This document shows positions 1,635-63,454 of a stretch of DNA of 64,000 nucleotides, piece after piece. The DNA is from the human T2T-CHM13v2.0 reference genome, Homo sapiens. The translations under genes and the position numbers were made by a program. The notes under the pieces were generated by a model. The model had not been told where the DNA came from. It ran no database searches and saw only the letters and a list, made by a program, of their open reading frames with translations. Where the stretch lies: assembly GCF_009914755.1 (NCBI RefSeq), contig NC_060935.1; one strand, given 5' to 3'. Each line of letters starts with the position of its first letter. The stretch's first letter is position 1.

Positions 1635-1645
1635 TAATCTAATCA
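1635..1645 (+). promoter_or_regulatory. Perfect DUX4 consensus motif
   Basis: TAATCTAATCA, about 460 bp from the 1151-1193 cluster and in the same orientation. Confidence 0.45.
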
Positions 1646-33679: not shown

Positions 33680-34840
33680 CTCCCTATTATTTAGGGTATA
33701 GCATTTATATAATTTATTTGGAATTCTGCTACAAGATAGATTTGTCTCTTTTCTTCAATTTGTCAATTTATTCAATCATTTATATCAGTATGAACTCACA
33801 GATATTTATTTTGTACTTTTGATTATAATTCAAGATGACTTTTTTTTTTTTTTTTGCTAAGTTTCTTCAAGCTTTGGCCATTGGGAGCTGTTTCTGTTCA
33901 TTCCTGTGCCCCGTTGCCGTACCCCCATCAAGGTTTTTGTTTGCTTGTATTTAAAACATCCTTGTTTTCAAGCACTTCAAGATATCCCAGACTTGTCCAG
34001 TACATTTCCTTTCCTCGGTCTAGAAATTTCTTTTTCTCCATCAGTATTGCCAATTCTTTATTTTATTTTTCTTTAAAGGCATCAGATTTCAGTACCTTAA
34101 TCATCTCTTTTTTTGTGTATCTTTGTTTTCTCTTTTGTTTATCATTCTGTCATTATTTTAATCTTTCATTTTTATTGCCTAATTCTGTTTTTTTTGGTTT
34201 TGGTTTTTACTAACTGCTGAGTTGAGCATCGAGATGAATAGACTTTTACAAACACGGATATTAATTTTGAAATAAATATGGTTGGGTTCAACTCCTTTTT
34301 GCTGACTTTAAATTATATTTAATTGTGGTCAAGATTGTGCTCAATATACTGATTGTATGGAATTTTAATTGATATTTATTTTGTACCCCGAATTGCTAAA
34401 TTTTTGTAAATGTTTTATATCTGTTGTAAAGCATTTCTCTTTGCTTTATGGTGGTGGTGAGTCATATGATCAAAGTTGTTAAGTTTGTTCAAACTCTTAT
34501 AGCATTATTAATTTTCTTCTCTCCTTTGTCACTTTCAGAGAGAATGGTGTTAAAGAAAAATCAAAACTCCTGCCATAATTGCAGAATCATCAGTTTTACC
34601 TTGTAATTCTCAGGATTCACTTTCTATGACTCAATGCCATATGGTTAGGTGTATGATGTTCATCACTGTAATATGTTTCTAGTGAAGTTTTCTTTTTGAT
34701 AGTTATAAAATGTGCCACTTTGATCCTATAAATACATTGCTATCCCAGGTTTCTTTTTTTAATATTTGTCCTGTTGTGCCTTTTTCAACCTCTTAATTTT
34801 CAGCCTCTTAGTTAACTCTGTTTTAAAATTGCTTTTTAAA
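33680..34840 (+). repeat. Upstream block of the duplicated cassette, copy 1 (paralogs ~40680-41775 and ~58800-60255)
   Basis: Shared ordered anchors: gaactc, gattataattcaa, ttggccattgggagctgttt, aataaatatggttgg, tggtcaagatt, gttcatcactgta, taaaatgtgc. Confidence 0.85.
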
Positions 34841-34880
34841 AAAGGACCTTTATAAGTCAAATCAGGAAACTAGCCCTTGG

Positions 34881-36380
34881 GTGAAGGACATCAGTTTCGT
34901 GACCCTGCTATGGATCGATTACAGCAAAGTGGCCTCCAGTGTGGCTGCCAGGGGACGAGGGTGACTTTTTCCCATGGACGTCTTTGTGCACATCCTGTAA
35001 ACCGAGCCCTATGAGCTGCGGAAACACAGGCAAGACCAGGCAATTGTGGACCACATGGAGCCCAGGGCACTAGACAGCCAGCAGCTGAGCACCTAGAGGG
35101 AGGCCCAGTTGACCAGGAGAGCCGTGTTAGGCCTGAGGCATCTCCCTCTTCACTGAGCTCAAAGCCCCAGTTTGCCTGTGGCCGTGGGTGCCGTTATGTG
35201 CTCTCCACGCCTCCGTCCTTCAGTGGCCCTAGGGGCTGCTTCCCATAGCGAGGTCACCATGACCTGCAGCTCCCAGAAGCCTGGCTGGATCCCATTGCTG
35301 ACCCTCATTCTGTCCACCCCAGATCTTCATCCCCAAACTGGCAGACATGGTCGTGGTCATAGTCGTTGTGCTCTGGAACTGGGGGCTCAGGAGCCGACCA
35401 TTCTGGCTTAGGCCAGGAGGCCCCTCTTGGTGGGCACAGTGCACTTAGTTCTGGGCCCTGAGCCTCATCCGCTGTATACAGATGAAGCTTTGATGGACAA
35501 AGTTGCACCTTTGAACTTGGGGCTTCAGCATCTTGCCAAGGCTTCTGGGTGCTGCTGTGCCCCTGATCATCAACCCTTGGGGTCCCCACTGAATCATGAT
35601 GAACCCATGCACCCTGGCCCCTATGCCTGCTAACCCAGGGTAGCACCACTCAGAATCTCTCTGACATTGTTCCCCTGACTCCTCCCAATGTCATTGTGTC
35701 TTTGAATAAGTTCTGCAGGGATGCTGCTCCAGATTGCACAGCCCCTGTGAATCTGGATGAGACTGAAGCAATGGACCACTCATGCCTCTAGGATCCTGGC
35801 CCCTACTGAGGTTGCCAGAATCTCCTAAGCCCCTGACTCATCTCCTGGTGCTAAAGGTAGACAGAGCTGCACCTCAGAATTTGGAGATATTTGCCTTCAA
35901 TGCAAGATCTCAATCATCTGAACCCATGACTGTTGAATATGTTGCCAAATGTGGCTGCCCCTCTGACCTCAACTACAGAAGCCACAGAAGGCTCCCAGCC
36001 AAGCACAGTTCGGGTCTGGACCTGTGTATTAGATTCTTCGACCTTCAAGAACTGACACATTTTCAAGGTTACCAAATGCTGCCTCCTGTTTGTTAAATTT
36101 GACACTCCTAGTGTGTATCTGACATGTAAAAAAAGGAAAATCCTGAAAACATATTTTAAAATCACAATTATAAAAGAGATATATCTAAAACTAAGTGATT
36201 CAGAAAAATTGAAAACTAAAAGAATGGGGGAAACTGTACCAAGGAAAATGCAAAAGCAAAAGGAAACAGAGGTGGTAGATCTTAATATCAAACAAATGTA
36301 GACCAAAGGGACATAGAAGGACTCTTTATAATACTAAAGGCTAAATTTCACAATGAAAATACAGCCTTTATAAATAGCCA
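34881..36380 (+). pseudogene. 5'-deleted KDM4D/E-like pseudogene with a KDM4E-type 3' tail
   Basis: Homology starts at the [14 protein letters not shown] codons (tggatcgattacagcaaagtggcctcc); stops and frameshifts; tail translates DEALMDKVAPLNLGLQHLAKASGCCCAPD and aligns to 50112-51420. Confidence 0.9.
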
Positions 36381-40661: not shown

Positions 40662-41833
40662 TAATTGTGCCTGGCCTAATTCATTTAGAATTCTTATGAA
40701 AAAGAATTTTGTCACTTCTCAGCTATTTGTTAATTTATTTAATTTTTAATTTACATCAGTACGAACTCATATTTATTTCATGCTTGGATTATAATTCAAT
40801 TTATATATTTTCTTGCTCGGCTTGGAGATTTGGCCGTTGGAAGTTGTTTTCCTTGTGCCCCTCAAAGTAACCCCATTTTTGACTGTGTGTATTTACCAAG
40901 TTTTTATTTTTCACTACTGCTAATGCTTTGGGCTTTGTCTGTATATCACTTGCCTAGGCCTAGCAAGTGCTTTGTTATCAATACTGCTACTTATTTTTTA
41001 TTTAAAAGTATCATATTTTAGTTTTATTAATCATTTCTATTTCAGTATACATTTTCCCTTTTGCTTATTTATCCATGATCATTTTTATATTTCATTCTCT
41101 TTTGCATATTTTTGTTTTGTTTCATTTTTACTCGCTGCTTGAGGGCAACCTGAAGATCAATAAGATTTTAGAAATGTGAATATAAATTTTCAAATAAATA
41201 TGGTTGGATTCAGCTTTTGTATTGTTGACTTTCAATTTCATTTCATTTTGGTCAAGATTGTTTTCTGTATATGCATTCTATGGGATTTTAATTTGATATT
41301 TACTTTGTAGTCCTGTATTGGTAAATTTATCTATTATAAATGTTTCTTGTGTACTGAGAAGCATTTTCCATTTGCTTTTTAATTGTTGCAATTTTGTTCC
41401 TCAAAGTTCTTAAGCTTGTACATATTATTATAATATTATTAATTTTCTACTCTGCTCTATTGGTTTCTGAAAGAATAATGCTAAAAAAATTAAAAACTAC
41501 ATCACAATTGCATATTTTACTGTCTGACTTTACAACAACTCTCAGTCCTGGCTTTCCATGTGTCAGTGCTATGCGTAGGGTCATAAAGTTCATCACTGTA
41601 TTATTCTGGTGAATTTTTCTATTCAATAACTGTAAAATGTGCCTTTTTAATTCTATAACTACATTGGATATTAACATAGCTGCTTTAGTTTTCTTTTGTT
41701 TGGTATTTGTCAGGGTTGCCTTTTTCCATTCCTTGATTTTTAACTACTTAGCTTCGTTTTCAGATTGGTTTAAAATGCAAAATGAAAGGGAGGGGCTTGG
41801 ACGGGTGGGATGCCTAATCTGGACCAAGCCCAG

Positions 41834-41885
41834 TGATTACATTAGCTGGGCCCTGATTGGGTTAGGGTGTTGCCCAGGTATAAAG
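41834..41885 (+). promoter_or_regulatory. Putative KDM4E promoter: paired DUX4-type motifs and TATA box
   Basis: TGATTACATTA (41834-41844), TGATTGGGTTA (41854-41864, rc TAACCCAATCA) and TATAAAG (41879-41885); strongly conserved with 60314-60365. Confidence 0.75.
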
Positions 41886-41907
41886 CCAGGGTCTTTGGAA
41901 CGTGGGG

Positions 41908-41994
41908 CTTTATTTGGAGTTTAGCTACCAACAGGAAACCTTCTCTTTGGGTCCTGAAGTATTTTCATATGGAATTGTGAGTTTTTGACCGAAG
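41908..41994 (+). other. Putative noncoding exon 1 of KDM4E
   Basis: Begins ~25-30 nt after the TATA box (TSS inferred); donor AAG|GTAGGT at 41994/41995, alternative TT|GTGAGT at 41976/41977. Confidence 0.55.
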
Positions 41995-42420
41995 GTAGGT
42001 CGTTTTATTTCTCTGTCGGAGCACTTTTGGATATTTGTCCTACTGAGAACCTTATTATCATCAATTTGTTCTAAGATTTTGTTAAATATTGTAAAACATC
42101 TCCACCAGATTTTTAGCTATGCTGCTTGTTTCTTACCTCAATGTGTTTTTGTTTGTACTTTCATTTATCTTCATGCCGATGGCTTTTTACTTCTCATCAT
42201 ATTTTTTGAAAACTCAGTTTTCATTCTTTGTCATTCCTGTTGGGTGTTCTGTTTCCTTTTGCAATGGTTTCTTCTTATGAATTTATTTTCATTGTTTCTA
42301 TTGATGTTAATGCATCCAGTTTCTTGAATGGAGTGCTCAATTTATTCATTTTCAAACTTGATCATTTTTCATTTTAGTTTGATGCTGCTCTTTTTCTGTT
42401 TTATGATTTGACCTGATGTT

Positions 42421-45400
42421 TGTCTCATGTGACCGTGTGAAGAGACCCCCAAACAGGCTTTGTGTGAGCAACAAGGCTGTTTATTTCACCTGGGTGCAGG
42501 CGGGCTGAGTCCGAAAAGAGAATCAGCAAAGGGTGGTGGGATTATCATTAGTTCTTACAGGTTTTGGGATAGGCGGTGGAGTTAAGAGCAATGTTTTGGG
42601 GGCAGGGGGTGGATCTCACAAAGTACATTCTCAAGGGTGGGGGAGATTATAAAAAACTTTCTTAAGGGTGGGGGAGATTACAAAGTACATTGATCAATTA
42701 GGGTGGGGCAGAAACAAATCACAATGGTGGAATGTCATTAGTTAAGGCTATTTTCACTTTTGTGGATCTTCAGTTGCTTCAGGCCATCTGGATGTATATG
42801 TGCAGGTCACTGGGGATATGATGGCTTAGCTTGGGCTCAGAGGCCTGAAATTCCTGTCTTCTGATAATAAGAAAAATAAAACAAAATAGTGGTAAAGTGT
42901 TGGGACGGTGAAAATTTTTGGGGGTGGCATGGAGAAATAATGGGAGATGTTTCTCAGGGCTGCTTCGAGCAGGATTAGGGGTGGCGTGGGAACCTAGAGT
43001 GGGAGAGATTAAAGTGAAGAAAGATATTGGGGTAAGGGGTGATATTGTGGGGTTGTTAGAAGGAGCATTTGTTGTATAGAATGATTGGTGATGGTCTGGA
43101 TGCAGTTTTTTATGAATTGAGAAACTAAACAGAAGACACAAGGTCCGAATAAGAGAAGGAGAAAAACAGGTATTAAAGGACTAAGAATTGGGAGGACCCA
43201 GGACATCCAATTAGAGAGTGCCCAAGGAGGTTCAGCATAGCCCTGCCAGCAAAGATTTATTTACTTTAAGAGGGAGTTAAGAGTGGCGGTTTGGGGATAG
43301 CACCAGGAGATATCAGCTGTGATGGCTTGGAGAAACAGTGTAAACCAGCAGTGTAAACAAGAGTAGGGCATTTATGAGTAGTTGAGAACAGTGAATAGGA
43401 GTATGACTAGAAAGAAGATAGTAGGGATGACTAGTTTTTGGGGCTCAGTCCAAGTAGTGGGGGTGACTGCATAAAGCCCTGTTGTAAAAAGTAGGGTAAG
43501 GATGAACAGACCTAATAGAATGAAGGGATGTATTAGGCTCATAAGGGTTATTACTGTTCTTCAGAAATACGAGTGAGTTTAAGGGAAGTAGGGGAGAGTA
43601 CTTGTGACTTCCAGGAGGAAGAGGAGAGATTAGGCTGGCTGTCCAACAGACACAGCTTTATCCTGGAATGGTGAACCCAGTGGGGAGGATCCTGCAGGTG
43701 GACGGCAGTTGGGGTACTATAGATGACTAAGTAGGGTCCAGTCCATCAAGGTTGTAGAGTTTGAGGGGTCAGATTCTTAACAAGAACTGATCGTTCAGCT
43801 AGGGTGTCTTCATATGGCTGGGGATCTGGAGTAGGCAAGAGAAGATTAGCAGCCTGGTGAATTTCCTGTCTAGCCTGCTGGAGGACTGGAAGATAGTTGC
43901 CTAGAGGACTGGTGTCTGGGACGAGGTTGGGGCTGAGCAAGAAAGTGCATCCATATAAAAGTTCAAATGGACTGTACCCTGTAGCATCTTGAGGACAGGC
44001 TCTAATTCTGAGAAGGGCAAGAGGTAAAAGTATTGTCCAGTCCTTTTAAAGTTGGTGGCTGAGCTTGGTGAGGTGTGTTTTTAAAAGACCATTAGTCCGT
44101 TCTACCTTTCCTGAAGACTGAGGACCGTAAGGGATATAAAGGTTTCACTGAATACCAAGAGCCTGAAAAACTGCTTGGCTGATTTAACTAATAAAGGCTG
44201 GTCTGTTATCAGACTGTATAGAGGTGGGAAGGCTAAACTGAGGAATTATGTCTTATAGAAGGGAAGAAATGACTGTGGTGGCCTTCTCAGACCCTGTAGG
44301 AAAGGCCTCTACCTATCCAGTGAAAGTGTCTACCTAGACTAAGAGGTATTTTAGTTATCTGACTCGGGGCACATTGAGTAAAGCTAATTTGCCAGTCCTA
44401 GGTGGGGGCAAATCCTCGAGCTTGATGTGCAGGGAAGGGAGGGGGCCTGAACACTCCCTGAGGAGTAGTAGAATAGCAGATGGAACACTGAGAAGTTATT
44501 TCCTTGAGGATAGATTTCCACGATGGAAAGGAAATGAGAGGTTCTAAGAGATGGGCTAGCGGCTTGTGACCTACATGGAAGAGGTTATGAAATGACAACA
44601 GAATAGAATGGGCCTGTGAGGCTGGAAGGAGATATTTTCCTTGGTCTAAGAACCATTTGCTTTGTGTAGGAAGAGATTGATAGGTGGAAGTTTTAGTGGG
44701 CGAGTAGGTGGGAGTGGCCAGATAAGAAGGAGAAAAACTGCCGTGAGGGATAGATGTTGGAATGCTAGGCCTTGAGAAGAGTTTTTATTAAGGAGGCATT
44801 AATGATGGAGGACCCTTGCATAGTGAGGAAACCTCTTTCAGCCCGTATAATAGCATGGTGGTGCAGGATATGGAAGGCATATTTAGAGTCAGTATAAATA
44901 TTGACGTGTAATTCCTTTGCAAGAGTGAGGGCTCGAGTTAAGGCAATGAGTTCAGCTTGCTGAGAGGTAGTGGAGGGGGGCAGAGCAGTAGCCTCAATGC
45001 TAGATGTGGAAGATACTATAAGCATAGCCTGCCTTTGCTGGTGTGTGGCGATTAGGCCTGGTGGAACTGCCATCAATAAACCAAGTGTGATTAGGGTGAG
45101 GAACAGGAAAGAAGGAAATATGGGGAAATAGAGTGAATGCCAGGTGGATCAGAGAGATACAGTCATGGGGGTCAGGTGTGGTATCCAGAATAACATGGGA
45201 GGCTGGATTGAAGACCCGGCCAGGAACAATGGTAATTGTGGGAGACTCAACAAAGAGTGAGTACAGCCGAAGGAGCTGGGGAGCAGAAAGTATATGTGTC
45301 AGGTGTGAGGAAGAAAATAGATTTTGGAAGTTATGAGAACTGTAGGGAGTGAATTGAGCATAGTCTGTGATTTTGAGGGCCTCTAAAAGTATTAGGGCAG

Positions 45401-48099
45401 CAGCAGCCACCACACGCAGACATGAGGGCTAGGCTAAAACAGTAAGGTCAAGTTGTTTGGACAGAAGGCTACAGGGTGCGGTCCTGGCTCTTGTGTAAGA
45501 ACTCCGACTGCACAGCCCTGCACTTTGGCTGTGTGTAATGAAAAGGGTTGGGATGAGTTAGGGAGAGCTAGTGTGGGGGCAGCTTCTAGGGCTGTTTTTA
45601 AGGAACAGAAAGGAGTGGCGAAAGGATTTAGGATCTGTGGGATCAACTAGGTTTGCTTTTGTGAGTTTATATCATGGTTTAGTCAGGATGGTAAAGCTAG
45701 GTATCCAAAGGTGGAAGTACCTAACCATGCCGAGGAAGGAAAGGAGTTGTTGTTTTGTAGAAGGGATTGGGGTTTGGGAGATTAGCCAGACACAATGAGG
45801 AGGGAGAGCACGTGTGTCTTCCTGAGAATTATGCCGAGATAGATAACAGATGAGGAAGAAATTCGGGCTTGATTGAAGTAATGGGGGCTGTCCGTGAAGC
45901 CTTGTGGCAGTACAGCCCAGGTAATTTGCTGAGCCTGATGGGTGTCAGGGTCAGTCCAAGTGAAAGCGAAGAGAGGCTGGGATGAAGGGTGAAAAGGAAT
46001 AGTAAAGAAAGCATGTTTGAGATCCAGAACAGAATAATGGGTTGTGGAGAGAGTTATTTAGGACAGGAGAGTATATGGGTTTGGCACCACGGGGTAGATA
46101 GGCAAAACAATTTGGTTGATAAGGCACAGATCCTGAACTAACCTGTAAGACTTGTCCGGTTTTTGGACAGGTAAAATGGGGGAATTGTAAGGAGAGTTTA
46201 TAGGCTTTAAAAGGCCATGCTGTAACAGTCGAGTGATAACAGGCTTTAATCCTTTTAAAGCCTGCTGCGGGATGGGATATTGGCATTGAGCGGGGTAAGG
46301 GTGATTAGGTTTTAATGAGATGGTAAGGGGTGCATGATCGGTTGACAAGGAGGCAGTAGAGGTATCCCATACTTGTGGGTTAAGGTGGGGAGATACAAGG
46401 GGAGGATGCGAAGGAGGCTTTGAACTGAGGGAAAAGGCAGCAATGAGGTGTGGCTGTAGCCCAGGAATAGTGAAGGAAGCAGATAATTTAGTTAAAATGT
46501 CTCGACCTAATAAGGGAGCTGGGCAGGTGGGGATAACTAAAAATGAGTGCATTAAAGAATGTTGTCCAAGTTGGCACCAGAGTTGGGGAGTTTTAAGAGG
46601 TTTAGAAGCTTGGCTGTCAATACCCACAACAGTTATGGAGGCAAGGGAAACAGGATTGTCAGATGAGTCTGTAGAAAAGAAGGATTCAAAGGACTCAGAG
46701 CTTGGGGTGGAGACTGAAGGAACAGACAGGAGAGAAAGAAAAAAGATTTGGGACAAGTCTCTTTGGGAGCAGAGACTAGGGAGGGACCAATGTATAAAAG
46801 AATGCCTGGATGTCGGGCACCTCAGACCATTTTTGCCCATTTTTCGACAAAAATTGTCTAGGTCTCGTAGGATGGAGAAATCAAAAGTGCCATTTTCTGG
46901 CCATTTAGAACCATTGTCGAGTTTGTACTGGGGCCAGGTGGTGTTGCAGAAGAAAATAAGATGCTTAGATTTTGGGTCAGGTGAGAGTTGAAGAGGTTTT
47001 AAGTTCTTGAGAACACAGGCTAAGGGAGAAGAAGGAGGAATGGAGGGTGGAAGGTTGCCCATAGTGAAGGAGGCAAGTTTAAAAAATAAGGGTAGAGACA
47101 CAGAGAAGGGGGGTGGGGAGCAGCCCTGAGCTGCAACGTAGGGGAGCAGCCAAAGCAGCTGTCCCCACAGTTGATTTGCCCATCAAGGGAATGTGGGTGA
47201 ATGATAATGTGGGTGAATGCGGAGATCAGACACCAATGGAACATGGGTGAATAATCAGAGACACATCCCCACAATGATTAAACACCAAGGGAAGGCTGCC
47301 TTCCCGAGTCCGTGACCAGCGCCGGAGTTTTGGGTCCAGGGATAAAATGTGTCTCCTTTGTCTCTACCAGAAAATAAAAGGAATTGAAATTAAGAGAAGA
47401 AAGAGATTGAAGGGTGGCGCCAAGATTGAAAGAAGAAAGAGGTTGAGGGATAGTGAGAGAGGTTGGAGAAGACAGTAAAAAGAGCTGCTTGCCTGATTTA
47501 AAATCAGTGAGATGTTCCTTGGGCTGGTTGGTCTGAGGACTGGAGGTCGTATGTGGATCTTTTCACAGAGTGAGGGTGAGGACAGGGGACTGGTCTCCCG
47601 AAGGAGTCCCGCTGACCCAGGTCTTCGGCACGAAATGTCTCACGTGTCCGTGTCAAGAGACCCCCAAAGAGGCTTTGTGTGAGCAACAAGGCTGTTTATT
47701 TCTCCTGGGTGCAGGCGGGCTAAGTCCAAAAAGAGAGTCAGCAAAGGGTGGTGGGATTATCATTAGTTCTTACAGGTTTTGGGATAGGTGGTGGAGTTAA
47801 GAGCAATGTTTTGGGGGCAGGGGGTGGATCTCACAAAGTACATTCTCGAGGGTGGGGGGAATTACAAAGAAACTTCTTAAGGGTGGGGGAGATTATAAAG
47901 AAACTTCGTAAGGGTGGGGGAGATTACAAAGTACATTGATCAGTTAGGGTGGGGCAGAAACAAATCACAATGGTGGAATGTCATCAGTTAAGGCTATTTT
48001 CACTTCTTTTGTGGATCTTCAGTTGCTTCAGGCCATCTGGATGTGTATGTGCAGGTCACTGGGGATATGATGGCTTAGCTTGGGCTCAGAGGCCTGACA
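42421..48099 (-). mobile_element. HERV-H provirus, deleted ~5.7 kb form, with two LTR7-family LTRs
   Basis: LTRs 42421-42850 and 47636-48099; 5-bp TSD ATGTT (42416-42420, 48100-48104); PPT rc agaagacaggaa; gag MGNLPPSIPP, RT NSPYNSPILPVQKPDKSYRLVQDL, RNaseH QQAELIALTRAL..VNIYTDSKY, integrase and env TM remnants. Confidence 0.96.
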
Positions 48100-48204
48100 A
48101 TGTTTACATATCCTGATGTTAGCATATGTTTTAGCTTAGCTTAATGCTAGCTGAATATTTCTTTTGTCTGGTTATATACTTATTTAAAAAATATGAATAT
48201 TCTG

Positions 48205-48227
48205 TATCTTTTGTTGTTGTTGTTTAG
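48205..48227 (+). promoter_or_regulatory. Putative splice acceptor of the KDM4E coding exon
   Basis: tcttttgttgttgttgtttAG, 367 nt before the ATG; the following UTR is homologous to KDM4D 20035-20384 (acccccaggt, agagtgga, ctca(c/t)agataa). Confidence 0.6.
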
Positions 48228-48594
48228 GTGTATTGTTTCGACTTCCTAGAAGAGACCCCCAGGTACAGTGGGACACTAGCTGCTACTAGTGCACCCAAGC
48301 CTGAGAATCAGGAGAAGCCTCACAGTGACACCCCCAACTGAGGAAACTCACAGAGCTGGGACATACTCTACTTCTTCAGAAAAAAGTATACTGACTAGAG
48401 TGGAGTCCCCCTGGGGAGTCAGAAAGCCTGTGAAAGATCTCACTTGTTCAAAAGTCCAAGTGTGAATTACTGTCTCACAGATAAACCAAAGTATTTTGAA
48501 AAACAAAGGGGAGAAAAGAAATTACTCCCCAGAACTCTCAGGCATCTAGAGGACACCCAAGAACGTGGGAGTCAGCTGCTTCTTGTGTGCAGCC

Positions 48595-50115
48595 ATGAAG
48601 TCTGTGCACTCCAGTCCCCAGAACACGAGTCATACCATCATGACGTTTTACCCAACCATGGAAGAATTTGCAGATTTCAACACATATGTTGCTTACATGG
48701 AGTCCCAAGGCGCACATCAAGCTGGCCTTGCCAAGGTAATTCCACCCAAGGAATGGAAAGCCAGACAGATGTATGATGATATCGAAGACATCTTAATAGC
48801 CACTCCCCTCCAGCAGGTGACCTCTGGGCAGGGAGGTGTGTTTACTCAATACCATAAAAAGAAGAAAGCCATGAGGGTGGGGCAGTATCGCCGCTTGGCA
48901 AACAGTAAAAAATATCAGACTCCGCCACACCAGAATTTTGCAGATTTGGAGCAACGATACTGGAAGAGCCACCCCGGTAATCCACCAATTTATGGTGCTG
49001 ATATCAGCGGCTCCTTATTTGAAGAAAGCACTAAACAATGGAACCTAGGACACCTGGGAACAATTCTGGACCTGTTGGAGCAGGAATGTGGGGTTGTCAT
49101 CGAGGGTGTCAACACACCCTACCTGTACTTTGGCATGTGGAAGACCACGTTTGCCTGGCACACAGAGGACATGGACCTTTACAGCATCAACTACCTGCAC
49201 TTTGGGGAGCCCAAAACTTGGTACGTGGTGCCCCCAGAACATGGTCAGCACCTGGAACGCCTGGCCAGGGAGCTCTTCCCAGACATTTCTCGGGGCTGTG
49301 AGGCCTTCCTGCGGCACAAAGTGGCCCTCATCTCGCCTACAGTTCTCAAGGAAAATGGGATTCCCTTCAATTGCATGACTCAGGAGGCTGGGGAGTTCAT
49401 GGTGACCTTTCCCTATGGCTACCATGCTGGCTTCAATCACGGCTTCAACTGCGCAGAAGCCATTAATTTTGCCACTCCACGATGGATTGATTATGGCAAA
49501 ATGGCCTCTCAGTGTAGCTGTGGGGAGTCGACAGTGACCTTTTCCATGGACCCCTTTGTGCGCATTGTGCAACCCGAGAGTTATGAGCTCTGGAAACACA
49601 GGCAAGACTTGGCCATTGTGGAACACACAGAGCCCAGGGTTGCAGAAAGCCAAGAGCTGAGCAACTGGAGAGATGATATAGTACTTAGAAGAGCTGCTCT
49701 GGGCCTGAGGCTTCTCCCAAACCTCACAGCCCAGTGTCCCACACAGCCTGTGTCCTCAGGGCACTGTTACAACCCAAAAGGCTGTGGCACTGATGCTGTG
49801 CCTGGATCCGCATTCCAAAGCTCTGCATATCATACCCAGACCCAGTCACTTACCCTGGGGATGTCAGCCAGGGTTCTTCTCCCTTCCACTGGAAGCTGGG
49901 GTTCTGGTCGTGGTCGTGGTCGTGGTCAAGGTCAAGGTCGAGGTTGCAGTCGTGGTCGTGGTCATGGTTGTTGTACTCGAGAACTGGGGACTGAGGAGCC
50001 AACTGTTCAGCCTGCATCCAAGAGGCGCCTTTTAATGGGTACAAGGAGTAGAGCTCAAGGCCACAGGCCTCAGCTCCCGCTTGCCAATGATTTGATGACA
50101 AATCTGTCCCTTTGA
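48595..50115 (+). CDS. KDM4E: Lysine demethylase 4E (JMJD2E), 506 aa
   Basis: ATG in GCCATGA context ([10 protein letters not shown]); intact JmjN/JmjC with HTED, GFNHG and CSC; RG-rich C-terminus; length matches human KDM4E. Confidence 0.96.
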
Positions 50116-51494
50116 GTGGTGGCCTTCAGCATCTTGCCAAGGCTTCTGGCTGCTGCTGTGTCCCTGATCTTCAACTCCTGGGGCCCCCACTGGATCGTGA
50201 TGAAACCATGCACCCTGGCCTGTGCCTGCTATCCCTCAACAGCACTACTAGTAATCTCCCTGATGTTGTCTGCATGACTCCTCCCAATGTCATTGTGCCT
50301 TTGATTAAGTTTTCCAGGGACACTGGTGGGGACTGGAACTGATTAAGTTCACCAGGGACACTTGCCTGGTGAACATGGGCAAGGCTGTAGCAATGGACCA
50401 CTTTTACGGCTCTAGGGTTCTGACTCCAACTAAGTTTTCCAGAATCTCCTGGGCTCCTGACTCATCTGCTGGGTCTAAAGACACTGAGTTTAGGGATATT
50501 TTCCTCCAATACATGATCAATCCTCTGGATCCACGGCTATGGAATATGGTGACAAATGTCAGTGTCTCTCTTATTCCAACCCCAGGATCAGAGAAGATTC
50601 TTTACCTGCAGTAACTGACACATTTCCAAGGCCCCCAGATGCTGTCTCCAACTGTGACAACCAGGGCTCCCAGAGGCCACTGAAGTCCCCTCCCCAAAGG
50701 TTGCCATAGGATGTTGTAGTACCTCTCAGGGATTCTCTGTCTACTCCACATATTTGCCTGTGGCCTTCACCATGGCCAGATGCCATGGACAGCACTTGTT
50801 TCTGATGTCCCCCTTAGGATACCTCCCTTATAGTGCTATGGGTCCAGATTCCATGGTAATTTGGGCCCACACTGGATGATGCTGAGAATCTTACTGAGCC
50901 TCTCATTTTTACTTCTCATCTGGTCCTCTATGTCTCTGACTCTGGATTCCACTGGACATTGCTACAACCCCAGTGAGGTTCAGGGCTTCCCACAATCCTT
51001 CAATTGCAACATGCCCTTTATCCTAGGCCACCGTCCACTGCTCATGTACAAACTAGACCTTTTGACCAACTGAGTTACTTAGCCAGTTATGGCTTCAGAG
51101 GTATTTTGTAACTATACTGATGTTAACTAAATTTGCTGTCTCTAATGTATATCTCCAAAGAAAATAAAAGTCTTAGTGCATGTTTTTTAAATTAGAATAA
51201 TATAAAATAGATATATCAAAAAGAAAGTGATTTAGAAAAGTGATTGAGATAAAAGAATGGGGAAACTATACCAAGCAAAGAACAAACATAAAAGTAGATT
51301 TACAGATCTTAATATCAGGCAAACCTGAATTGAGACCAAAGGTACATAGCATGGATCTTCACAATGCAAAATACTAAATTTCACAATGACATTACAGCAG
51401 TCATGAATATTCAAGTTCGACATAGTATAAATTATAGTACATAAAAGACAAGTTTAAAGAAACAGATTAAAAATAGGAACATTTAAGTCACCAG

Positions 51495-52175
<681 letters not shown>

Positions 52176-53585
52176 ATAGTCACTCATCCAAGGCAGAAAA
52201 AATGGAGAAATATAAGGATATGGAAAATTTAAACTACATTAACAATAAGGTAGTATTGGCATACTAGATGATAGAAAATACTTCCTCTCTTCAAGTGCCA
52301 AAAATGCTGAATTTTCACAAAACAATAAATATCTATTACATGCATAAACTCTGCAGCAAGAAAGCCTGATTTTGTTCCCAAGTTTCTCTTATCAGCTTGT
52401 ATGACCTTGAAAATTACTTAACCTTATGACTCAGTTTCCTCAACATAAAATGAAGATAGCACCTACCTCATGTGTGTAGTTGACAGTTCTATGAATTAAT
52501 ATATGCAATTTGTTAACATCAATGCTTGGGATACAATAGCATTATTGGAGTGTTTCTAGATGTAAAACTTAATAAAATACATAAAGAAATATATGAGATT
52601 CATTTACAATAGTGCTGAGGAAAATCTGCAGCCTTAAGTATTTTCTCCATCATATTCAAATAATGAAATTAACTGGATTAAACTTCTAATGTACAAGTTA
52701 GGAAAAGATAAACTGAAAGTAGTTGGAAGGAATTGATACATGTATACACAGAAATTAATGAGTTAGAATAACTGTAAAATGTATACTAAATCAACACAAA
52801 GCACCAATAATATGGATTTTTTGTTAGAAAAATTAACTTACTAGACACAAAAAATTTAAGACTAAATTTCTGTGTCTGAAATATAGAAAGAGCAGAAGAT
52901 CTGCCTATTCAAAAATGACAAGGATTAGACAAACTTGCAGAGGAATTGTGTGACATCTTCATTTCTAGTATACCTAGGCCTTTAAAATGAGAAAAAAAAT
53001 TCACATTTTAAAATAAATACATCATTGACAGAAAATCCTGATGAATTGCAGAATGAGAGAAAGTTATGGACAAAACTTATTGAGGAACATCAAGGTAAAA
53101 ATTTTAACTTAAATATTAGCTAAGAGAATCTAAATACGTTAAAAGAGTAACATATGATGACTACATGGGATTTATTGCAGGAAGGAAACAATAGTTTAAA
53201 GCAAGGAAATCTGGAAATATAACTTATCTTGTAAATATATCCAGAAGTTATATGATTATAGATGCTGATAGTCATTTGATAAAATTCAACAGTCAGTCTT
53301 GGTTTGCTCTCACCCACAAGGCAGCAATGAATCCTTCCATAAAATAAAATACAAAATTGTTTATCTAATAGTGAGATATTTTAGACCCAAGCCACCATTT
53401 TCCTTCATGTGAGGTATTTGAGGCACTTCAGTCAATAATTTATGGAATTTGCACTATTAACCACTGAAAATATTTTTAGAACTATAATTGATGGAAGGGA
53501 AGAGACAAAACTTATTTTGTTGTGGTTGCAGTTGATAAGGCTGAATGTGGGGAAAACTCAAGGAGGAGGTTAAACTTCTAAATGG

Positions 53586-55065
53586 TTTCTTTATGGTTAC
53601 CATGCTGGCTTCAACCATGGCTTCAACTTCCAGGAGGCCATGAATTTTGCCACCATGGAATAGATCAATTCAGGCAAAGTGGAGTCTCAGTGCAGTGGTG
53701 GGAAAGCCATTGTGGGCATCCTGTAACCCAAGTGCTATGACCTGTGGAAACACAGTCATTTGGGGCAGTTGCAGAACCCATGGAGTCCAGGGCACATGCC
53801 AGCCTGGAGATGCCCACCTGGTGAAAGATCCAAGTGCTGGAGAGGACTAGCCTGGCCCCAGTCACCACCCATGTCAACAGGGTCATGACCCACACAACCT
53901 ATGGCCTCAGGCTGTGGTTCCCATTGCCTTACCCTTGTGCCTGGTGTTCCCATGGCCTTTCCATCCTGCAGTGATGCTTCCCAGCCCACGAACTTAGCCT
54001 GGACCCACTGCCCACCCCAGCTATGCCAAGCCTGGTCTGAACCCCTCAACTGACAGACGTGGCCATGGTCCTTGCCCTCTGTAACTGGGGGCTCCGGAGC
54101 CAATACTCCAGGCTCCAGCCAGGAGGTGCCTCTTGATGGTCACAGGGCACACAGCTTTAGGCCCTCAGCCTCAGGCCCTGAGTCTAAGTCCTTGCCCACA
54201 GATGGAGCATTGATGAACAGGCCTGCACCACTAAGCCCAGGATCCAGCATCCTGCCAAGGATTCTAGGTGCTGCTGGGCCCCTGCCTCTGAGGCCATGGT
54301 CAGTCTTTATACCTCACTGCTCTACTAAGTGAGGGCTTCTTGATATTGCTCACATTTACATCTCAGGATTTTGGGCACATTTTCAGACCACTACAATTAT
54401 AGAGCCTTCAGTGCTGAGATAGCCCCTCTGGTGAGGCACCTGCGTGCTGCTGAGTATATTAATCATATCTTCTTTATCCTGCAAGACCTTTTAATGTCTT
54501 GACACTTCTACTTCTGTGTCACCAGCTGAGATTTCATCCACTGGACATGAATATCTCTGAGAACGAGGTCTTCCTGGGTTTGCTGGGAACTCATCTATCC
54601 CAGCGTCCCAATTGCTGGAACAACTATGGAGGCTGCTGCACTTCTGAAGAATTCACAATGTGGTTCCCCTTCAATCTCCTTCCCTTACCTACCCCTGCCC
54701 CAACTCTCCCTTTCTAGCAAAACTAGCCTTTTATGAACAATTAGGTCAGTAGAGTTAGAAAAAAGGTATCATCTTTCTGAGTCATTGAGGTATTCAAAAT
54801 GTGATGTCACCAGTATTTGTTCACAAATGAATTAAAAGTCACCAAAATGTAAGATCTGACTTTCTTTCTAATATTGTAGTTTCAAACAACTTGGAAAGGA
54901 GGTTATTCTCCATGCATTTTTCTTCATAGTTAGTTGAAAACTTTTAAAGCAAAATGTATTTTATGGGCTGGTTACATTGTGTGGTGATGCTGAGCTCAGG
55001 GCATGGTTGTGGGGTTCTGGCTGTCTGGCCAGGTGGGAGCACTGGGTTGCAGTCATACTTTGAGG
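53586..55065 (+). pseudogene. 5'-truncated KDM4D-like pseudogene with KDM4D-type 3' UTR and flank
   Basis: tatggttaccatgctggcttcaaccatggcttcaac ([12 protein letters not shown]), then frameshifts and deletions; TDGALMNRPAPLSPG; homology to KDM4D continues to gggttgcagtcat (22700 vs 55045). Confidence 0.9.
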
Positions 55066-57399
55066 CTGGCCTTATGCCCAGCCTGGTTCTCAGCTAAATA
55101 GCAGGACCCAAATTGCTGGGAAAGATGAGCAGCCCTAGGGTGAAGGTGCCATTATCTGACTATCTTCTCTCCCCGGGCTCCACTGCCTTTTCAAAGCTGT
55201 GTGTAGCTTTCACACTGATAACTCATTCACTCAACCCAATATCGTCCCCAAATAAGTGAGCAAGGTTTCAATCAGGAATGTGTGCTGTATAGAAACTAAA
55301 GAAGGATTGGACAACAGAGCAGAATGAGCTGGGGCTGGCTGAGTGGCCAGTCTCAGAAGGATTCACTGAGCAGGAGACTTTGGGGACACAATTACAAAAT
55401 GGGGAGGTCCAGAGCAGAATTCTCCACTTGCAGGGACCAGCAAGTACAACAGACCTAGCATAGAATGTGGTGAGTTTGTGTTTCCAGGAAAACAAAAGAA
55501 GCTTATTTGTGTCTGGGACACAGAGAGGAAGGGAGAGAGGCAGGGGGCAGAATATGGAGGGCCTTGTGTCCCATGTCAGGTGCATTATGTGGTGTTCCTT
55601 CAACTTGAAATAAGGAGGCATTAAAACAGCAGCGGAAAAGATGTGAATGACATATTTAAGTAATCAGCTTAGTTGTTCTGTGGAGAATGTGTGAGTAGGA
55701 GAAGCAATTAGACTATTTATAATAAAAGTGAGAGTGACAGTTGCTTACACTTAATTGTTAGTATTGCAAATGCACAGAAATGGAAAAATTCAGAATATAT
55801 TATTCACATTGAAAATGATAGTTTTGATGAAGAAGGAAACATTCAGAGAAGCAAACCACTCCTCACCTTAGTACCACCCTTCCTTAACTTCCCCACTCCC
55901 ATCCAGAATTTCAGGAAGGCTGTAAATTTTGAAGCATGAGTAATAAAAACCTGGTGCTTGTCTAAAGTTCTCAATAAAGAGCAGAAAAACTCTTATCATC
56001 CTGTCTCTCCCATTCATTCAGGCAACTTTGTCTTTCTTAACATAACAAGAAGTTTATTCTTTGGAAAATTCAAGCTGAGGGAAAACATAGGGTCTCCAGG
56101 CATACAGGAGGATGGACTGAGATGCCTGGCTGAAAGGGGATTTAAGCTAATAGTGACATGGTGGAACCAAAGATGAAAGTACACTGCATTCACTGGAAGG
56201 GAGTAGCCCAAGAGAACTGTTGATCCCTGAGTACATCCTGCATGACCAAGGAATGAAATTTTATGTGATAGATAAAAGCCTCATTGGCCCTGGAGTGCAG
56301 TAGGCAGACAGCCTTCAGCTGCAGAGAGCTGCCTCACCCAAAGCCATGCCTCTTCCCAGTTTGGCCCACATCTCATGACTGTTCAGTGCTGGAGCATTAA
56401 TCTTGGCCATCTTTGCTCAACTTAGCACATTGCTGAAGGGCCATTTGTGCTACAGATTTGCCGAGAGTATCTTTGGCCCTAATCCTCAGCTCCAATTTTC
56501 CCTGTGCTCAAACATGCTTCCTTCCTCTCCTTTTCTCAGATATGGATCCCAAGCACACTTGTTAAGAAAGATCTTGGTGCTGAAGTCTGTTCCATAACGG
56601 ACTTGACCTACAACTTTACTTCAGGTTTCATTGTGTTTCAAAAGCCTAATTTTCTTGAGAGAATAAAGAGTACTCACCCCTACGGAAATCATAGTTCTTT
56701 GCATGGTTATTTAGTGATGTGAGGAGATAGGAATGGCCACATGAGAATTTCAGCTTTTAATTTATGGAATTATTGTTGTGACCCCTGGTGAAAACATGTC
56801 CCTTTGAATGTCATAAGTCACAAGGGCAAGAAGCAAATATCTTGCCATTGGCATGATGAATCAATACCAGTTTTACTCCTGGATTAACTGGAACCATGTA
56901 CTCTGTTCTGAGCAAAACAGTATCATGTTCAGAGCAAGTGACTCTCACATACATTGCTTGTGGGAATGTTACATTATACAGCCCCACTGAAAAACTGTTT
57001 GTTAATGTTCTGTAAACTTGACCACTTATCTATCCATAGCCATTCTCTTCCTGAGTATTTACCCAACCATTAGAAATCAGGAACTGTGAATAATCCACGT
57101 GTCTGAACAGATGAGTGGAAAAACTATAGCATATTAAATAGTATTCAGTTATAAAAAGCAATGATTCATTTTATATTCATTCCAAAAAAAAAAAAAAGGC
57201 CAAAATAAGCTGTGCTCATAGAACTTAGGTCATGGTTGCCTCTGGTGAGAGTGGGAATTAACTGGAAAGTTCTAGGCATGTGAGAATGTTGTGGGGCTAT
57301 GGGAATGTTCTGCATCTCATTTAGAGTGATGATTACATGGGTGTATATAAGTTTAAACTGGAGGAATTGGCAGAGCAAGATAGTATAATAGAAGGCTCT

Positions 57400-59573: not shown

Positions 59574-59887
<314 letters not shown>

Positions 59888-60313
59888 AAATTATATAGGA
59901 TTCCTAACTTTGTTCTCTGCACTATTGGTTTCGATTAAAATGCTGTTACATTAAAAAAAAACCAACATCTCCTATGATGATGGCAGACTTTTCAGTTTTA
60001 CCATCTAAGTCTGAGTCTTGGCTCTCTATGGTCAGTGCCATGTGGTTAGGTGCATAAAGTTCATTACTGTAATATTGTAATATTTTCCTATGAAATTTCT
60101 TTTCATTAACTATAAAATGTGCTTCTTTGATCCTATCAATACACTGGATATTAATATTGCTACCCTAGGTTTCTTTTGTTTAATATTTGTTTGGATTGCC
60201 TGTTCCCATAAATTGACTTTTAATCACTTAGCGTTGTTTTAAGATTGATTTAAAATGTAGAATAAAAGGGAAGGTTATGGGAGGGTGGGACGTCTAATGT
60301 AAACCCAGCCCAG

Positions 60314-60365
60314 TGATTACATTGGCTGGGCGCTGATTAGGTTAGGATGTTGCCCAGGTATAAAG
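60314..60365 (+). promoter_or_regulatory. Paralogous DUX4-motif/TATA promoter upstream of the SRSF retrocopy
   Basis: TGATTACATTG (60314-60324), TGATTAGGTTA (60334-60344, rc TAACCTAATCA) and TATAAAG (60359-60365); spacing identical to 41834-41885. Confidence 0.75.
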
Positions 60366-60626
60366 CCAGGATCTTCGGGACCTGGCTTCATTTGGAGTTC
60401 AGCTACCAAGAGGAAACCTTCCTCTGGGTCCTGGAGTATTCGGCCTGAAATTGGGAATTTGGGAATTGCTGCTCTAGAGCGCTCCCTGCGGAGCTCGGCC
60501 GCCCGCCTCTCCCCCAGGTCTCTCCTGGCGTCCCCACGCGGGGCGCAACCGCAAGAGAGGAACGCAGGTCGCCCCACCAGCGCCCAGTGCCGCGCCAGTT
60601 TCCAGGCCCGGGCTGCTCTCGGAGCC

Positions 60627-62834: not shown

Positions 62835-63454
62835 CTAGAAATATTTTGTAGAAAGTTGGTGGTTTTATTTTGCTGTTGGATACTTTCTGCTATTTGTACT
62901 TTTGGGAAAATTATGTTACCAAGTTTCTCATAGGATTCAATTATAATTAAAAAAAACTCTACAAGGTTTAGCTATGTGCTTTATTATTTTATCACAATGT
63001 AGTTTCTTTGTACACTCTTTCTTTCCTCTTCCTCCCTGTGATTTTTAACTTCTAAAGGTCTTTTCAAAGAATCAGATTTTGATTTTCGTTATTACCTATA
63101 CTGGGTGTAATATTTTCTTTTGTAATTGTTTCTGCTTATACCTTTATTTTCTTTCCTTTATTTTAATTCATCCCGCTTACTGAGTTGAGTGCTAAATTCA
63201 ATCATTTTTGAACTTGCTGATTTTTTTCTTTCAGTTCAATTAGATACTCCTCTTTATATATGTTATGATTTGACCTTGAATCCTGATATTAACACACCAT
63301 ACCAATCTGCCATAATCGATCCATCCTGGGTGGTGGAACTGATGGCCTCTGTACAGTTAAAGCTGTGGTTGAAGCCTGCGTGGCGTCACTAAGTTACTAA
63401 GGTAGCTTAAATCTCAGCATTTTGTTTGTCACACATTTGTCTTCAAATATTCTG

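What the first reader, a model, noticed from the sequence alone, without database searches (positions are those of the whole stretch)
41834..48594. KDM4E probably has a distal DUX4-driven first exon spliced across an antisense HERV-H
Seen: two DUX-type 11-mers 20 bp apart (about two helical turns), a TATA box 15 bp downstream, a strong donor at 41994/5, and an acceptor at 48227 positionally homologous to the KDM4D acceptor at 20034. The core promoter is visibly more conserved between paralogs than its flanks. Inference: the real TSS is ~41908, 6.7 kb upstream of the ATG, and the ancestral ~0.55-kb intron grew to ~6.2 kb by HERV-H insertion. KDM4E is usually treated as an intronless gene.
Basis: partly seen in the sequence, partly recalled or inferred. 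Interest (0 to 1): 0.75.

Follow-up and report, generated by a model that had tools for sequence, protein, structure and literature searches.

The report
Distal DUX4 promoter of KDM4E
KDM4E does start at a DUX4-bound TATA promoter 6.7 kb upstream and is spliced across an antisense HERV-H provirus, but a 2013 study already listed this promoter in a supplementary table, so it is a gap in the gene annotation and not a discovery.

Summary
These are two DUX4 11-mers (41834-44 and 41854-64, minus strand), a TATA box at 41879, donors at 41976/7 and 41994/5, and an acceptor at 48227/8. An LTR7-type provirus (42421-48099, minus strand, 5-bp target-site duplication ATGTT) lies between them, so a 549-bp intron became 6,233 bp.

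Published data support the interpretation. Young et al. 2013 (PMC3836709, Tables S1 and S4) list a DUX4 ChIP-seq peak whose best motif maps to 41851-41867. They join that peak to KDM4E by 290 and 789 spliced reads in DUX4-expressing myoblasts, against 0 and 0 in controls. Töhönen et al. 2015 (PMC4569847) list an unannotated embryo 5'-end cluster that maps to 41903-41998.

KDM4F is the paralog without the provirus. The same promoter also drives SRSF8.

Verdict: the finding is correct but already in print, in supplements only, and missing from RefSeq. I saw read counts but no junction coordinates, so the exact junction is still inferred.

The parts
41834..41844 (-). DUX4 site 1 (TAATGTAATCA on the minus strand)
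   Evidence: Exact match to TAAYBBAATCA. Identical in the KDM4F, SRSF8 and chr7 copies, and one base differs in the SRSF8BP copy. It lies inside the published DUX4 ChIP-seq peak.
41854..41864 (-). DUX4 site 2 (TAACCCAATCA on the minus strand)
   Evidence: Exact match. It sits centred in the 'best DUX4 motif' 17-mer of Young 2013 Table S1 once mapped to the window. All 5 genomic copies keep it as a match to the consensus.
41879..41885 (+). TATA box (TATAAAG)
   Evidence: Read directly. GGTATAAAGCC is identical in 4 of 5 copies; SRSF8 has GGTACAAGGCC. The embryo 5'-end cluster begins 24 nt after the first T (mapped with the offset).
41903..41994 (+). Non-coding first exon. Its 5' end comes from the embryo TFE and its 3' end from donor B; donor A at 41976 is the alternative.
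   Evidence: TFE FE99416 maps to 41903-41998. The exon is 77/86 identical to KDM4F over 41891-41976. It holds one upstream ATG, at 41969, opening a 3- or 9-codon ORF. Spliced reads join the peak around it to KDM4E.
41977..41982 (+). Donor A (AATT|GTGAGT)
   Evidence: 5 of 9 consensus positions. Conserved in KDM4F.
41995..42000 (+). Donor B (AAG|GTAGGT)
   Evidence: 7 of 9 consensus positions. In KDM4F the GT is TT. The TFE ends 4 nt past this donor.
41995..48227 (+). Intron 1, 6,233 bp (549 bp without the provirus and one copy of the duplication)
   Evidence: Coordinates. The KDM4F homolog is collinear without the insertion.
42421..48099 (-). LTR7-type (HERV-H) provirus, 5,679 bp, antisense to KDM4E
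   Evidence: LTRs at 42421-42850 and 47636-48099 show 14 mismatches in 429 aligned bases plus indels. The 5-bp duplication ATGTT lies at 42416-42420 and 48100-48104. Minus-strand frames hit RVP, RNase_H, Integrase_H2C2 and weakly Gag_MA, in proviral order. The LTR end is identical over 22 nt to the start of the LTR7 reporter sequences printed in PMC8912925.
48208..48227 (+). Polypyrimidine tract and acceptor AG (exon 2 starts at 48228)
   Evidence: 15 of 20 pyrimidines, and the only such AG in 48100-48595. It aligns with the RefSeq-annotated KDM4D exon-3 acceptor and with a conserved AG in KDM4F.
48228..50633 (+). Exon 2: 367-nt leader, coding sequence 48595-50115, 3'UTR. RefSeq starts this exon at 48295.
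   Evidence: Hub annotation; sequence; 506-aa ORF. The leader 48228-48594 is 327/367 identical to KDM4F.

Best explanation
KDM4E is a two-exon gene in cells that express DUX4.

1. DUX4 binds two adjacent consensus sites at 41834-41864, just upstream of a TATA box at 41879.
2. Transcription starts at about 41903-41910.
3. A non-coding first exon of roughly 75-90 nt is spliced from 41994/5, or from 41976/7, to the acceptor at 48227/8.
4. That acceptor is 67 nt upstream of the RefSeq 5' end and 367 nt upstream of the ATG.
5. The intron was about 549 bp until an LTR7/HERV-H provirus inserted in antisense orientation, which made it 6,233 bp.

Shown by data: DUX4 occupancy, DUX4-dependent spliced reads that join the bound region to KDM4E, and a 5'-end cluster in human cleavage-stage cells.

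Inferred: the exact donor and acceptor, and that the embryo transcripts are spliced in the same way as the myoblast transcripts.
For: Sequence:
- All elements are present.
- No motif with 1 mismatch or fewer lies between 46555 and 50301. The stretch upstream of the RefSeq 5' end therefore has none.

ChIP-seq (Young 2013 Table S1):
- The peak at chr11:94751762-94752182 has height 305 and 3 motifs, is flagged 'Unique', and shows log2 fold-change 11.51 at FDR 3e-21.
- The next listed peak downstream starts at 94760152, which falls in the KDM4E 3'UTR. No peak is therefore listed at the RefSeq 5' end or in the provirus.

- The peak is joined to KDM4E by 290 and 789 reads with DUX4 and by 0 and 0 without. 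The activation ratio is 1747.9.
- The method kept only reads that overlap the peak, contain an intron of at least 20 bp and overlap the gene.

Embryo 5' ends (Töhönen 2015):
- FE99416 maps to 41903-41998 and falls significantly from the 4-cell to the 8-cell stage (score -35.6, q 0.03).
- The homologous SRSF8 cluster, FE99446, starts 23 nt after its TATA-like box. It rises from oocyte to 4-cell (51.3) and falls from 4-cell to 8-cell (-56.6).

Paralogs:
- KDM4F is collinear with KDM4E and has no provirus. It keeps the motifs, the TATA box, donor A and the acceptor.
- All four chr11 copies of the promoter carry DUX4 peaks, with heights 289-390.
- The acceptor is homologous to the annotated KDM4D acceptor.

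Precedent: mouse Kdm4dl, the KDM4E-like 2-cell gene, has splice junctions validated by RT-PCR (PMC7253418, passages).
Against: - I saw only read counts and no junction coordinates, so 41994 to 48228 is not directly shown.
- The acceptor lies 67 nt upstream of the annotated exon. If it is the acceptor used, a 100-nt read must run well past the junction to overlap the annotated exon, so a different acceptor is not excluded.
- FE99416 is listed only among clusters that decrease from 4-cell to 8-cell. It is not among the 32 that rise at the 4-cell stage, so embryonic induction at this copy is not itself shown.
- The tables list only significantly changed clusters. The lack of a row at the RefSeq 5' end therefore does not exclude a proximal start site.
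- Donor B is not conserved in KDM4F, and donor A is weak (5/9).
- The same peak is also joined to SRSF8 by 56 and 6 reads. This hints at some cross-mapping among paralogs or at long-range splicing.
- The hg19-to-window offset rests on motif centring at three sites in and beside KDM4E and on recalled RefSeq hg19 coordinates.
Confidence: 0.88

Rival explanations
1. The distal element is mainly a DUX4-bound enhancer, or the promoter of a separate non-coding RNA. On this reading most KDM4E mRNA starts near the RefSeq 5' end at 48295, and only a minority of transcripts are spliced in from upstream.
For: RefSeq models a single exon from 48295 (hub table). The 5'-end tables list only significantly changed clusters, so a proximal start site could go unlisted. 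Vuoristo 2022 reports DUX4-activated transcribed enhancer-like regions (abstract seen in the listing).
Against: 290 and 789 spliced reads join the peak to KDM4E, against 0 and 0 in controls. This pair is row 5 of Table S4. No DUX4 motif and no listed ChIP peak lies near 48295. A TATA box, a start site at the expected distance, a donor and a homologous acceptor are all present and are conserved in KDM4F.
Confidence: 0.08
2. The linking reads and the 5'-end cluster are mapping artefacts. On this reading they come from the paralogous KDM4F or SRSF8 promoters and were wrongly placed at the KDM4E copy.
For: There are five similar copies of the promoter in the genome. The start of the coding sequence is 552/557 identical between KDM4E and KDM4F. 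The same peak is also linked to SRSF8.
Against: Exon 1 and the exon-2 leader are only about 89-90% identical to KDM4F, and the SRSF8-type copies are about 84% identical, so 100-nt reads can be told apart. KDM4F transcripts would align to KDM4F with a 560-bp intron. Each paralog has its own separate ChIP peak and its own induced expression.
Confidence: 0.03
3. The adjacent LTR7 (47636-48099) supplies the working KDM4E promoter, through bidirectional or antisense activity.
For: The LTR ends 195 bp upstream of the RefSeq 5' end. LTR7 elements are active promoters in early embryos and pluripotent cells (PMC8912925, abstract and passages).
Against: The provirus is antisense, so its 5' LTR points away from KDM4E. 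No DUX4 peak or motif lies in it. KDM4F has no provirus, yet the region around its promoter is induced to a similar degree (log2 fold-change 10.84).
Confidence: 0.02

Closest known systems
[quoted passage not shown] 2013 (PLoS Genet, PMC3836709, Table S4)
   Same: This locus is one of them. A DUX4 ChIP-seq peak is joined to an annotated gene by DUX4-dependent spliced reads.
   Different: 144 of the 238 are in repeats, mostly LTRs. This one is flagged 'Unique' and has only 5 genomic copies, which arose by segmental duplication. I found no mention of KDM4E in that paper's main text: it was absent from the 30 of 36 KDM4E+DUX4 papers listed, and I saw KDM4E only in its supplement.
The SRSF8 promoter (an expressed retrocopy-derived SR splicing factor gene)
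   Same: It has the same promoter cassette: both DUX4 sites, a TATA-like box and about 70 nt of first exon. It carries a DUX4 ChIP peak of height 390. Its embryo 5'-end cluster starts at the homologous position.
   Different: An intronless SR-protein coding copy is inserted into the first exon, between the homologs of 41983 and 41984, so no splicing to a KDM4 exon is needed. Its TATA is degraded to TACAAGG, and its induction is lower (log2 fold-change 5).
KDM4D, the parent gene, which has 3 exons in RefSeq
   Same: Its coding sequence lies in one exon preceded by non-coding exons, and its acceptor is homologous to 48227/8.
   Different: Its promoter lies 23 kb upstream of the coding exon. No homolog of the KDM4E promoter was found in window 1-20400.
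Mouse Kdm4dl (Qiao et al. 2020, PMC7253418)
   Same: It is a KDM4E-like gene switched on at genome activation, and its multi-exon transcript was missed by annotation and then validated by RT-PCR (passages).
   Different: It is a different species. I could not compare the promoters because no mouse sequence was available here.

Membership tests
Direct DUX4 target promoter | One or more matches to the DUX4 consensus TAAYBBAATCA | tested here: met
   There are two exact matches 20 bp apart. The consensus is quoted as the ChIP-seq motif in PMC12376486 (passage).
Direct DUX4 target promoter | DUX4 occupancy in cells | tested here: met
   A published ChIP-seq peak of height 305 has its best motif mapping onto 41854-41864 (Young 2013 Table S1). 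This was read from a table and not recomputed.
Direct DUX4 target promoter | DUX4-dependent transcription from the site | tested here: met
   log2 fold-change 11.51 at FDR 3e-21 for the peak +/- 1 kb, with 290 and 789 linking reads against 0 and 0.
Direct DUX4 target promoter | Induction is lost when the motifs are mutated or deleted | not testable with these tools
   This needs a reporter mutation, a deletion or CRISPRi.
Unannotated upstream first exon of an annotated gene | A mapped transcript 5' end at the proposed start site | tested here: met
   STRT cluster FE99416 maps to 41903-41998. The mapping offset is fixed by motif centring.
Unannotated upstream first exon of an annotated gene | A defined GT-AG junction supported by reads | tested here: inconclusive
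   Spliced reads exist, but the tables I could read do not give their junction coordinates. Sequence and homology favour 41994/41976 to 48228.
LTR7/HERV-H provirus | Paired LTRs with TG...CA ends, flanked by a short target-site duplication | tested here: met
   LTRs of 430 and 464 bp with 14 mismatches in 429 aligned bases, and the duplication ATGTT.
LTR7/HERV-H provirus | LTR sequence of the LTR7 type | tested here: met
   The reverse complement of 48078-48099 is identical to the first 22 nt of the LTR7 reporter inserts printed in PMC8912925, and the U5-side sequence is visibly shared. The subfamily was not determined. The middle of this LTR differs from the LTR7up consensus printed there.
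LTR7/HERV-H provirus | Internal gag-pro-pol remnants on the same strand as the LTRs | tested here: met
   The minus-strand hits are RVP (E 4e-5), RNase_H (E 3e-11), Integrase_H2C2 (E 0.002, below the curated cut-off) and Gag_MA (E 0.003, below the cut-off). They follow proviral order.
LTR7/HERV-H provirus | Primer-binding site for tRNA-His | tested here: inconclusive
   The sequence next to the 5' LTR only loosely resembles the tRNA-His site as I recall it. No reference sequence was available.
Retroelement-derived DUX4 promoter (MaLR/ERVL LTR type) | The DUX4 motif and start site lie inside a repeat | tested here: not met
   The peak is flagged 'Unique' in Young 2013 Table S1. The genome holds only 5 copies, all within KDM4/SRSF8-type duplications.

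The most novel reading that the evidence does not exclude
The element is an old, non-repeat, low-copy DUX4/TATA promoter-plus-first-exon cassette that has been used by several genes. It drives KDM4E and KDM4F through a short intron. A retrocopy of an SR splicing factor gene landed inside the first exon of a third KDM4 paralog, between the two donors, and so acquired cleavage-stage, DUX4-dependent expression as SRSF8. In KDM4E alone the intron later took in an antisense HERV-H, roughly 7-16 million years ago on recalled neutral rates. That could couple or insulate the DUX4 promoter from LTR7 activity in pluripotent cells. I found no paper describing the SRSF8 promoter capture (search; 7 papers listed).
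Probability: 0.5. Interest if true: 0.45.

Novelty: already known. Interest (0 to 1): 0.27.

Why it matters
KDM4E is a standard marker of DUX4 activity in FSHD muscle, 8-cell embryos and 8-cell-like cells. RefSeq, however, models it as a single exon from 48295.

- Studies that take 'the promoter' as the sequence upstream of the annotated start are looking at the edge of an LTR7, not at the DUX4-bound element 6.4 kb further up. Examples are the motif scan of the 'promoter region' and the promoter methylation analysis.
- Fixing the model, and probably also the KDM4F model, which starts at its ATG, would improve promoter-based analyses, primer and guide design, and 5'-end quantification.
- Nothing here changes what is understood about DUX4 biology.

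Tried and rejected
- The embryo long-read paper PMC10616205 has no KDM4E in its 8 held supplementary files.
- Vuoristo 2022 (PMC8990217) has no KDM4E in its main text or in its 5 held supplementary files, one of which is cut. The numeric hits there were unrelated expression values.
- Yoshihara 2022 (PMC9287684) lists KDM4E only as a DUX4-induced gene, without coordinates.
- Hendrickson 2017, Whiddon 2017 and Geng 2012 are not held. Their browser figures or tables may show the exon, and I could not see them.
- Supplemental Fig. S5 of the bioRxiv preprint 10.1101/2020.05.24.109710, which shows its 'KDM4E promoter' motifs, is closed.
- A search for KDM4E together with HERVH or LTR7 terms gave nothing specific to this locus. 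KDM4E with KDM4F gave enzyme and cancer papers by title; none was opened. KDM4E with 'unannotated' gave only the mouse Kdm4dl paper.
- I looked for a homolog of the promoter upstream of the KDM4D coding exon and found none in window 1-20400.
- I considered that the promoter might be a dispersed repeat and rejected it.
- The primer-binding-site check on the provirus was inconclusive.
- Phrase searches such as 'chr11 94800' do not match colon-joined coordinates, so I used digit strings instead.
- All 15 supplement look-ups are used. I could therefore not check whether KDM4D appears in Table S4.
Full report
**Observation.** Reading the sequence confirms every element at the stated place.
- DUX4 motifs: TGATTACATTA (41834-41844) and TGATTGGGTTA (41854-41864). 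Both are exact minus-strand matches to the DUX4 ChIP-seq consensus TAAYBBAATCA, which PMC12376486 quotes (passage).
- TATA box: TATAAAG at 41879-41885.
- Donors: AATT|GTGAGT at 41976/7 and AAG|GTAGGT at 41994/5.
- Acceptor: a pyrimidine-rich AG at 48227/8.

The window has 5 exact motif matches against 1.30 +/- 1.20 expected, and 1 of 100 shuffles reached 5. With one mismatch allowed the count is at chance (34 against 30.1). No site with 1 mismatch or fewer lies between 46555 and 50301, so the stretch upstream of the RefSeq 5' end (48295) has none.

Donor 41995 matches 7 of 9 consensus positions. 31 of 3,296 plus-strand GT sites do as well, and it is the only GT with 6/9 or better in 41886-42300. 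AG 48227 is the only AG between the provirus and the ATG with at least 14 of 20 upstream pyrimidines.

**The inserted element.** A direct repeat, 42421-42850 and 47636-48099, has 14 mismatches in 429 aligned bases plus a 31-bp and a 3-bp indel. It bounds a 5,679-bp element flanked by the 5-bp duplication ATGTT.

Minus-strand frames hit retroviral protease, RNase H, the integrase zinc domain and, weakly, gamma-type matrix protein, in proviral order. The outer end of the LTR is identical over 22 nt to the start of the LTR7 reporter inserts printed in Carter et al. 2022 (PMC8912925, passages).

It is therefore an LTR7-type HERV-H provirus, antisense to KDM4E. I did not determine the subfamily, and the primer-binding site is too diverged to call. 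The intron 41995-48227 is 6,233 bp.

**Paralogs.** The window's genome could be searched. The promoter has 5 copies:
- KDM4E (this one).
- Window 71279-71515, upstream of KDM4F, 88% identical.
- Window 60242-60440, next to SRSF8BP.
- Window 89886-90085, at SRSF8.
- One copy on chr7.

KDM4F is collinear with KDM4E on both sides of the insertion point and has no provirus. KDM4E 40677-42417 matches KDM4F 70192-71938, and KDM4E 48108-49151 matches KDM4F 71937-73015.

KDM4F keeps both motifs, the TATA box, donor A and the acceptor (AG at 72050-72051). The homolog of donor B has TT in place of GT. The RefSeq KDM4F model starts at the ATG (72459).

Identity between KDM4E and KDM4F:

| Region | Window coordinates | Identity |
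|---|---|---|
| Just upstream of the core promoter | 41701-41799 | 68/99 |
| Core promoter | 41800-41890 | 85/91 |
| Exon 1 | 41891-41976 | 77/86 |
| Intron, 5' part | 41995-42420 | 359/426 |
| Exon-2 leader | 48228-48594 | 327/367 |
| Start of the coding sequence | 48595-49151 | 552/557 |

The KDM4D and KDM4E leaders are homologous: score 48 against 5.0 +/- 3.2 in 200 shuffles. The RefSeq KDM4D exon-3 acceptor aligns with AG 48227. No homolog of the promoter lies in window 1-20400.

**Published data that settle the interpretation.** Young et al. 2013 (PMC3836709; main-text passages, supplementary rows) give two relevant tables.

Table S1 lists a DUX4 ChIP-seq peak at chr11:94751762-94752182 (hg19). 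It has height 305 and 3 motifs, with the best motif at 94751978-94751994. It is flagged 'Unique', with log2 fold-change 11.51 and FDR 3e-21.

Subtracting 94,710,127 places the 17-mer at window 41851-41867, centred on the 11-mer at 41854-41864. The same offset also centres two other best motifs: the 3'UTR peak on 50302-50312 and the SRSF8BP-copy peak on 60334-60344. It agrees with my recalled hg19 coordinates of NM_001161630.

[quoted passage not shown] It joins this peak to NM_001161630 (KDM4E) by 290 and 789 reads in two DUX4-expressing myoblast lines, and by 0 and 0 in controls, for an activation ratio of 1747.9.

By their Methods, such reads overlap the peak, contain an intron of at least 20 bp and overlap the gene. 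Between this peak and the one at 94760152 (the KDM4E 3'UTR) no peak is listed, so there is none at the RefSeq 5' end or in the provirus.

**Embryo 5' ends.** Töhönen et al. 2015 (PMC4569847; passages, supplementary rows) define TFEs as sample-specific first exons assembled from 5'-end reads.

FE99416, chr11:94752030-94752125 (+), 'Unannotated', maps to window 41903-41998. Its start lies 24 nt after the first T of the TATA box, and its end lies 4 nt past donor B. It is listed among clusters that decrease from the 4-cell to the 8-cell stage (score -35.6, q 0.03). It is not among the 32 that rise at the 4-cell stage.

The homologous SRSF8 cluster, FE99446, starts 23 nt after its TATA-like box. 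It rises from oocyte to 4-cell (51.3, q 0.019) and falls from 4-cell to 8-cell (-56.6). No digit string 94758 occurs in any of the 7 supplementary files, but these list only significant changes.

The TFE ending 4 nt beyond donor B fits reads that could not be split under the stated 5-nt minimum anchor. This is inference only. If right, it mildly favours donor B over donor A.

**Mechanism.** DUX4 binds the paired sites. The TATA box sets a start at about 41903-41910. A non-coding exon of 75-92 nt is then spliced over the antisense provirus to 48228.

It holds a single upstream ATG, at 41969, opening a 3- or 9-codon ORF.

- Shown by published tables: occupancy, DUX4 dependence, spliced linkage to KDM4E, and an embryo 5' end.
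- Inferred: the exact junction, and that embryo transcripts are spliced as in myoblasts.

Mouse Kdm4dl offers a precedent for a spliced KDM4E-like transcript at genome activation (PMC7253418, passages).

**Novelty.** The core claim has been in print since 2013, though only as a supplementary row.

I found no main-text discussion. Searches: KDM4E+DUX4 found 36 papers, 30 listed. KDM4E with HERVH/LTR7 terms. KDM4E+KDM4F found 16. KDM4E+'unannotated' found 6. Key subscription papers were not held.

RefSeq still shows one exon. A 2025 preprint names specific transcript isoforms for other DUX4 targets (RFPL2-203, LEUTX-202) but none for KDM4E (PMC12776069, passage).

- Base-level anatomy of the promoter, first exon and intron.
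- The boundaries, duplication and orientation of the provirus.
- The KDM4F empty-site comparison.
- The link between the 2013 ChIP/splice data and the 2015 embryo 5'-end cluster.
- The observation that SRSF8 uses the same cassette.

**SRSF8.** At SRSF8, homology to KDM4E runs from 40677 to 41964. It resumes at 41983 after about 2.07 kb that holds a 282-codon SR-protein ORF. The KDM4E intron sequence and a fragment of KDM4 coding sequence then follow.

Read at base level, the insert lies between the homologs of 41983 and 41984, between the two donors. A possible 6-nt duplication flanks it, and no A-tail remains. The in-window copy (59887-60440, then SRSF8BP, then 62851-63276, then KDM4-like coding sequence from 63465) is a duplicate of that arrangement.

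Noticed in passing
window 59887-60440 and 60466-61043; SRSF8 at window 88827-93585 (L008): SRSF8 and its in-window duplicate SRSF8BP carry the same DUX4/TATA promoter and about 70 nt of first exon as KDM4E. An intronless SR-protein copy (282-codon ORF) is inserted between the homologs of 41983 and 41984, and KDM4E intron sequence and a KDM4 coding fragment follow it. Both copies have DUX4 ChIP peaks (heights 289 and 390). SRSF8 also has a transient 4-cell 5'-end cluster. This looks like promoter capture by a retrocopy.
   Followed up: partly
window 71349-72459 (L002/L007): The RefSeq KDM4F model starts at its ATG (72459). Upstream it has both DUX4 sites (71349, 71369), a TATA box (71394), donor A (71491/2), an acceptor (72051/2) and a DUX4 ChIP peak (height 329, log2 fold-change 10.84). 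It probably has an unannotated first exon and a 560-bp intron.
   Followed up: partly
window 1166-1176 and 1635-1645 (+): Two exact DUX4 motifs lie in unique, AT-rich KDM4D intron sequence. They coincide with published DUX4 ChIP peaks (heights 79 and 73), and the flanking sequence is strongly induced (log2 fold-change about 9.5, FDR about 4e-16). The local hg19 offset here is 94,710,145. This may be a DUX4-driven internal start for KDM4D. I could not check Table S4 for it.
   Followed up: partly
window 50302-50312 and 50340-50350 (-): Two one-mismatch DUX4 motifs 38 bp apart in the KDM4E 3'UTR lie under a strong published DUX4 ChIP peak (chr11:94760152-94760686, height 242, 2 motifs). Their function is unknown.
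   Followed up: no
window 63465-64000: A KDM4-like coding fragment, homologous to KDM4E 48918-49502 at 77-79% identity, runs off the end of the window. It is not in the hub's gene table. It lies downstream of the SRSF8BP copy and lacks the leader and the first ~320 nt of coding sequence.
   Followed up: partly
window 41635-42055 (published peak): Young 2013 Table S4 also joins the KDM4E promoter peak to SRSF8 (NM_032102), 48 kb downstream, by 56 and 6 reads with DUX4 and 0 and 0 without. This is either long-range or read-through splicing, or cross-mapping between the paralogous first exons.
   Followed up: no
window 33710-35952 and 53580-55069: The two annotated KDM4D pseudogenes are partial copies of the same duplication unit. 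The first keeps the upstream block (homologous to 40677-41666) joined directly to the 3' half of the coding sequence, so it has lost the DUX4 promoter, the intron and the 5' coding sequence.
   Followed up: no
window 41815-41820: A TAATCT paired-like homeodomain core lies 14 bp upstream of DUX4 site 1. It is conserved in KDM4F and reads TAATGT in the SRSF8-type copies. A preprint reports that LEUTX and DUXA sustain KDM4E expression (10.1101/2020.05.24.109710, section 8).
   Followed up: no
G000 C7:47213858-47214057 (L003): A fifth copy of the promoter, of the SRSF8 type and with both DUX4 sites and an intact TATA box, lies on chromosome 7.
   Followed up: no
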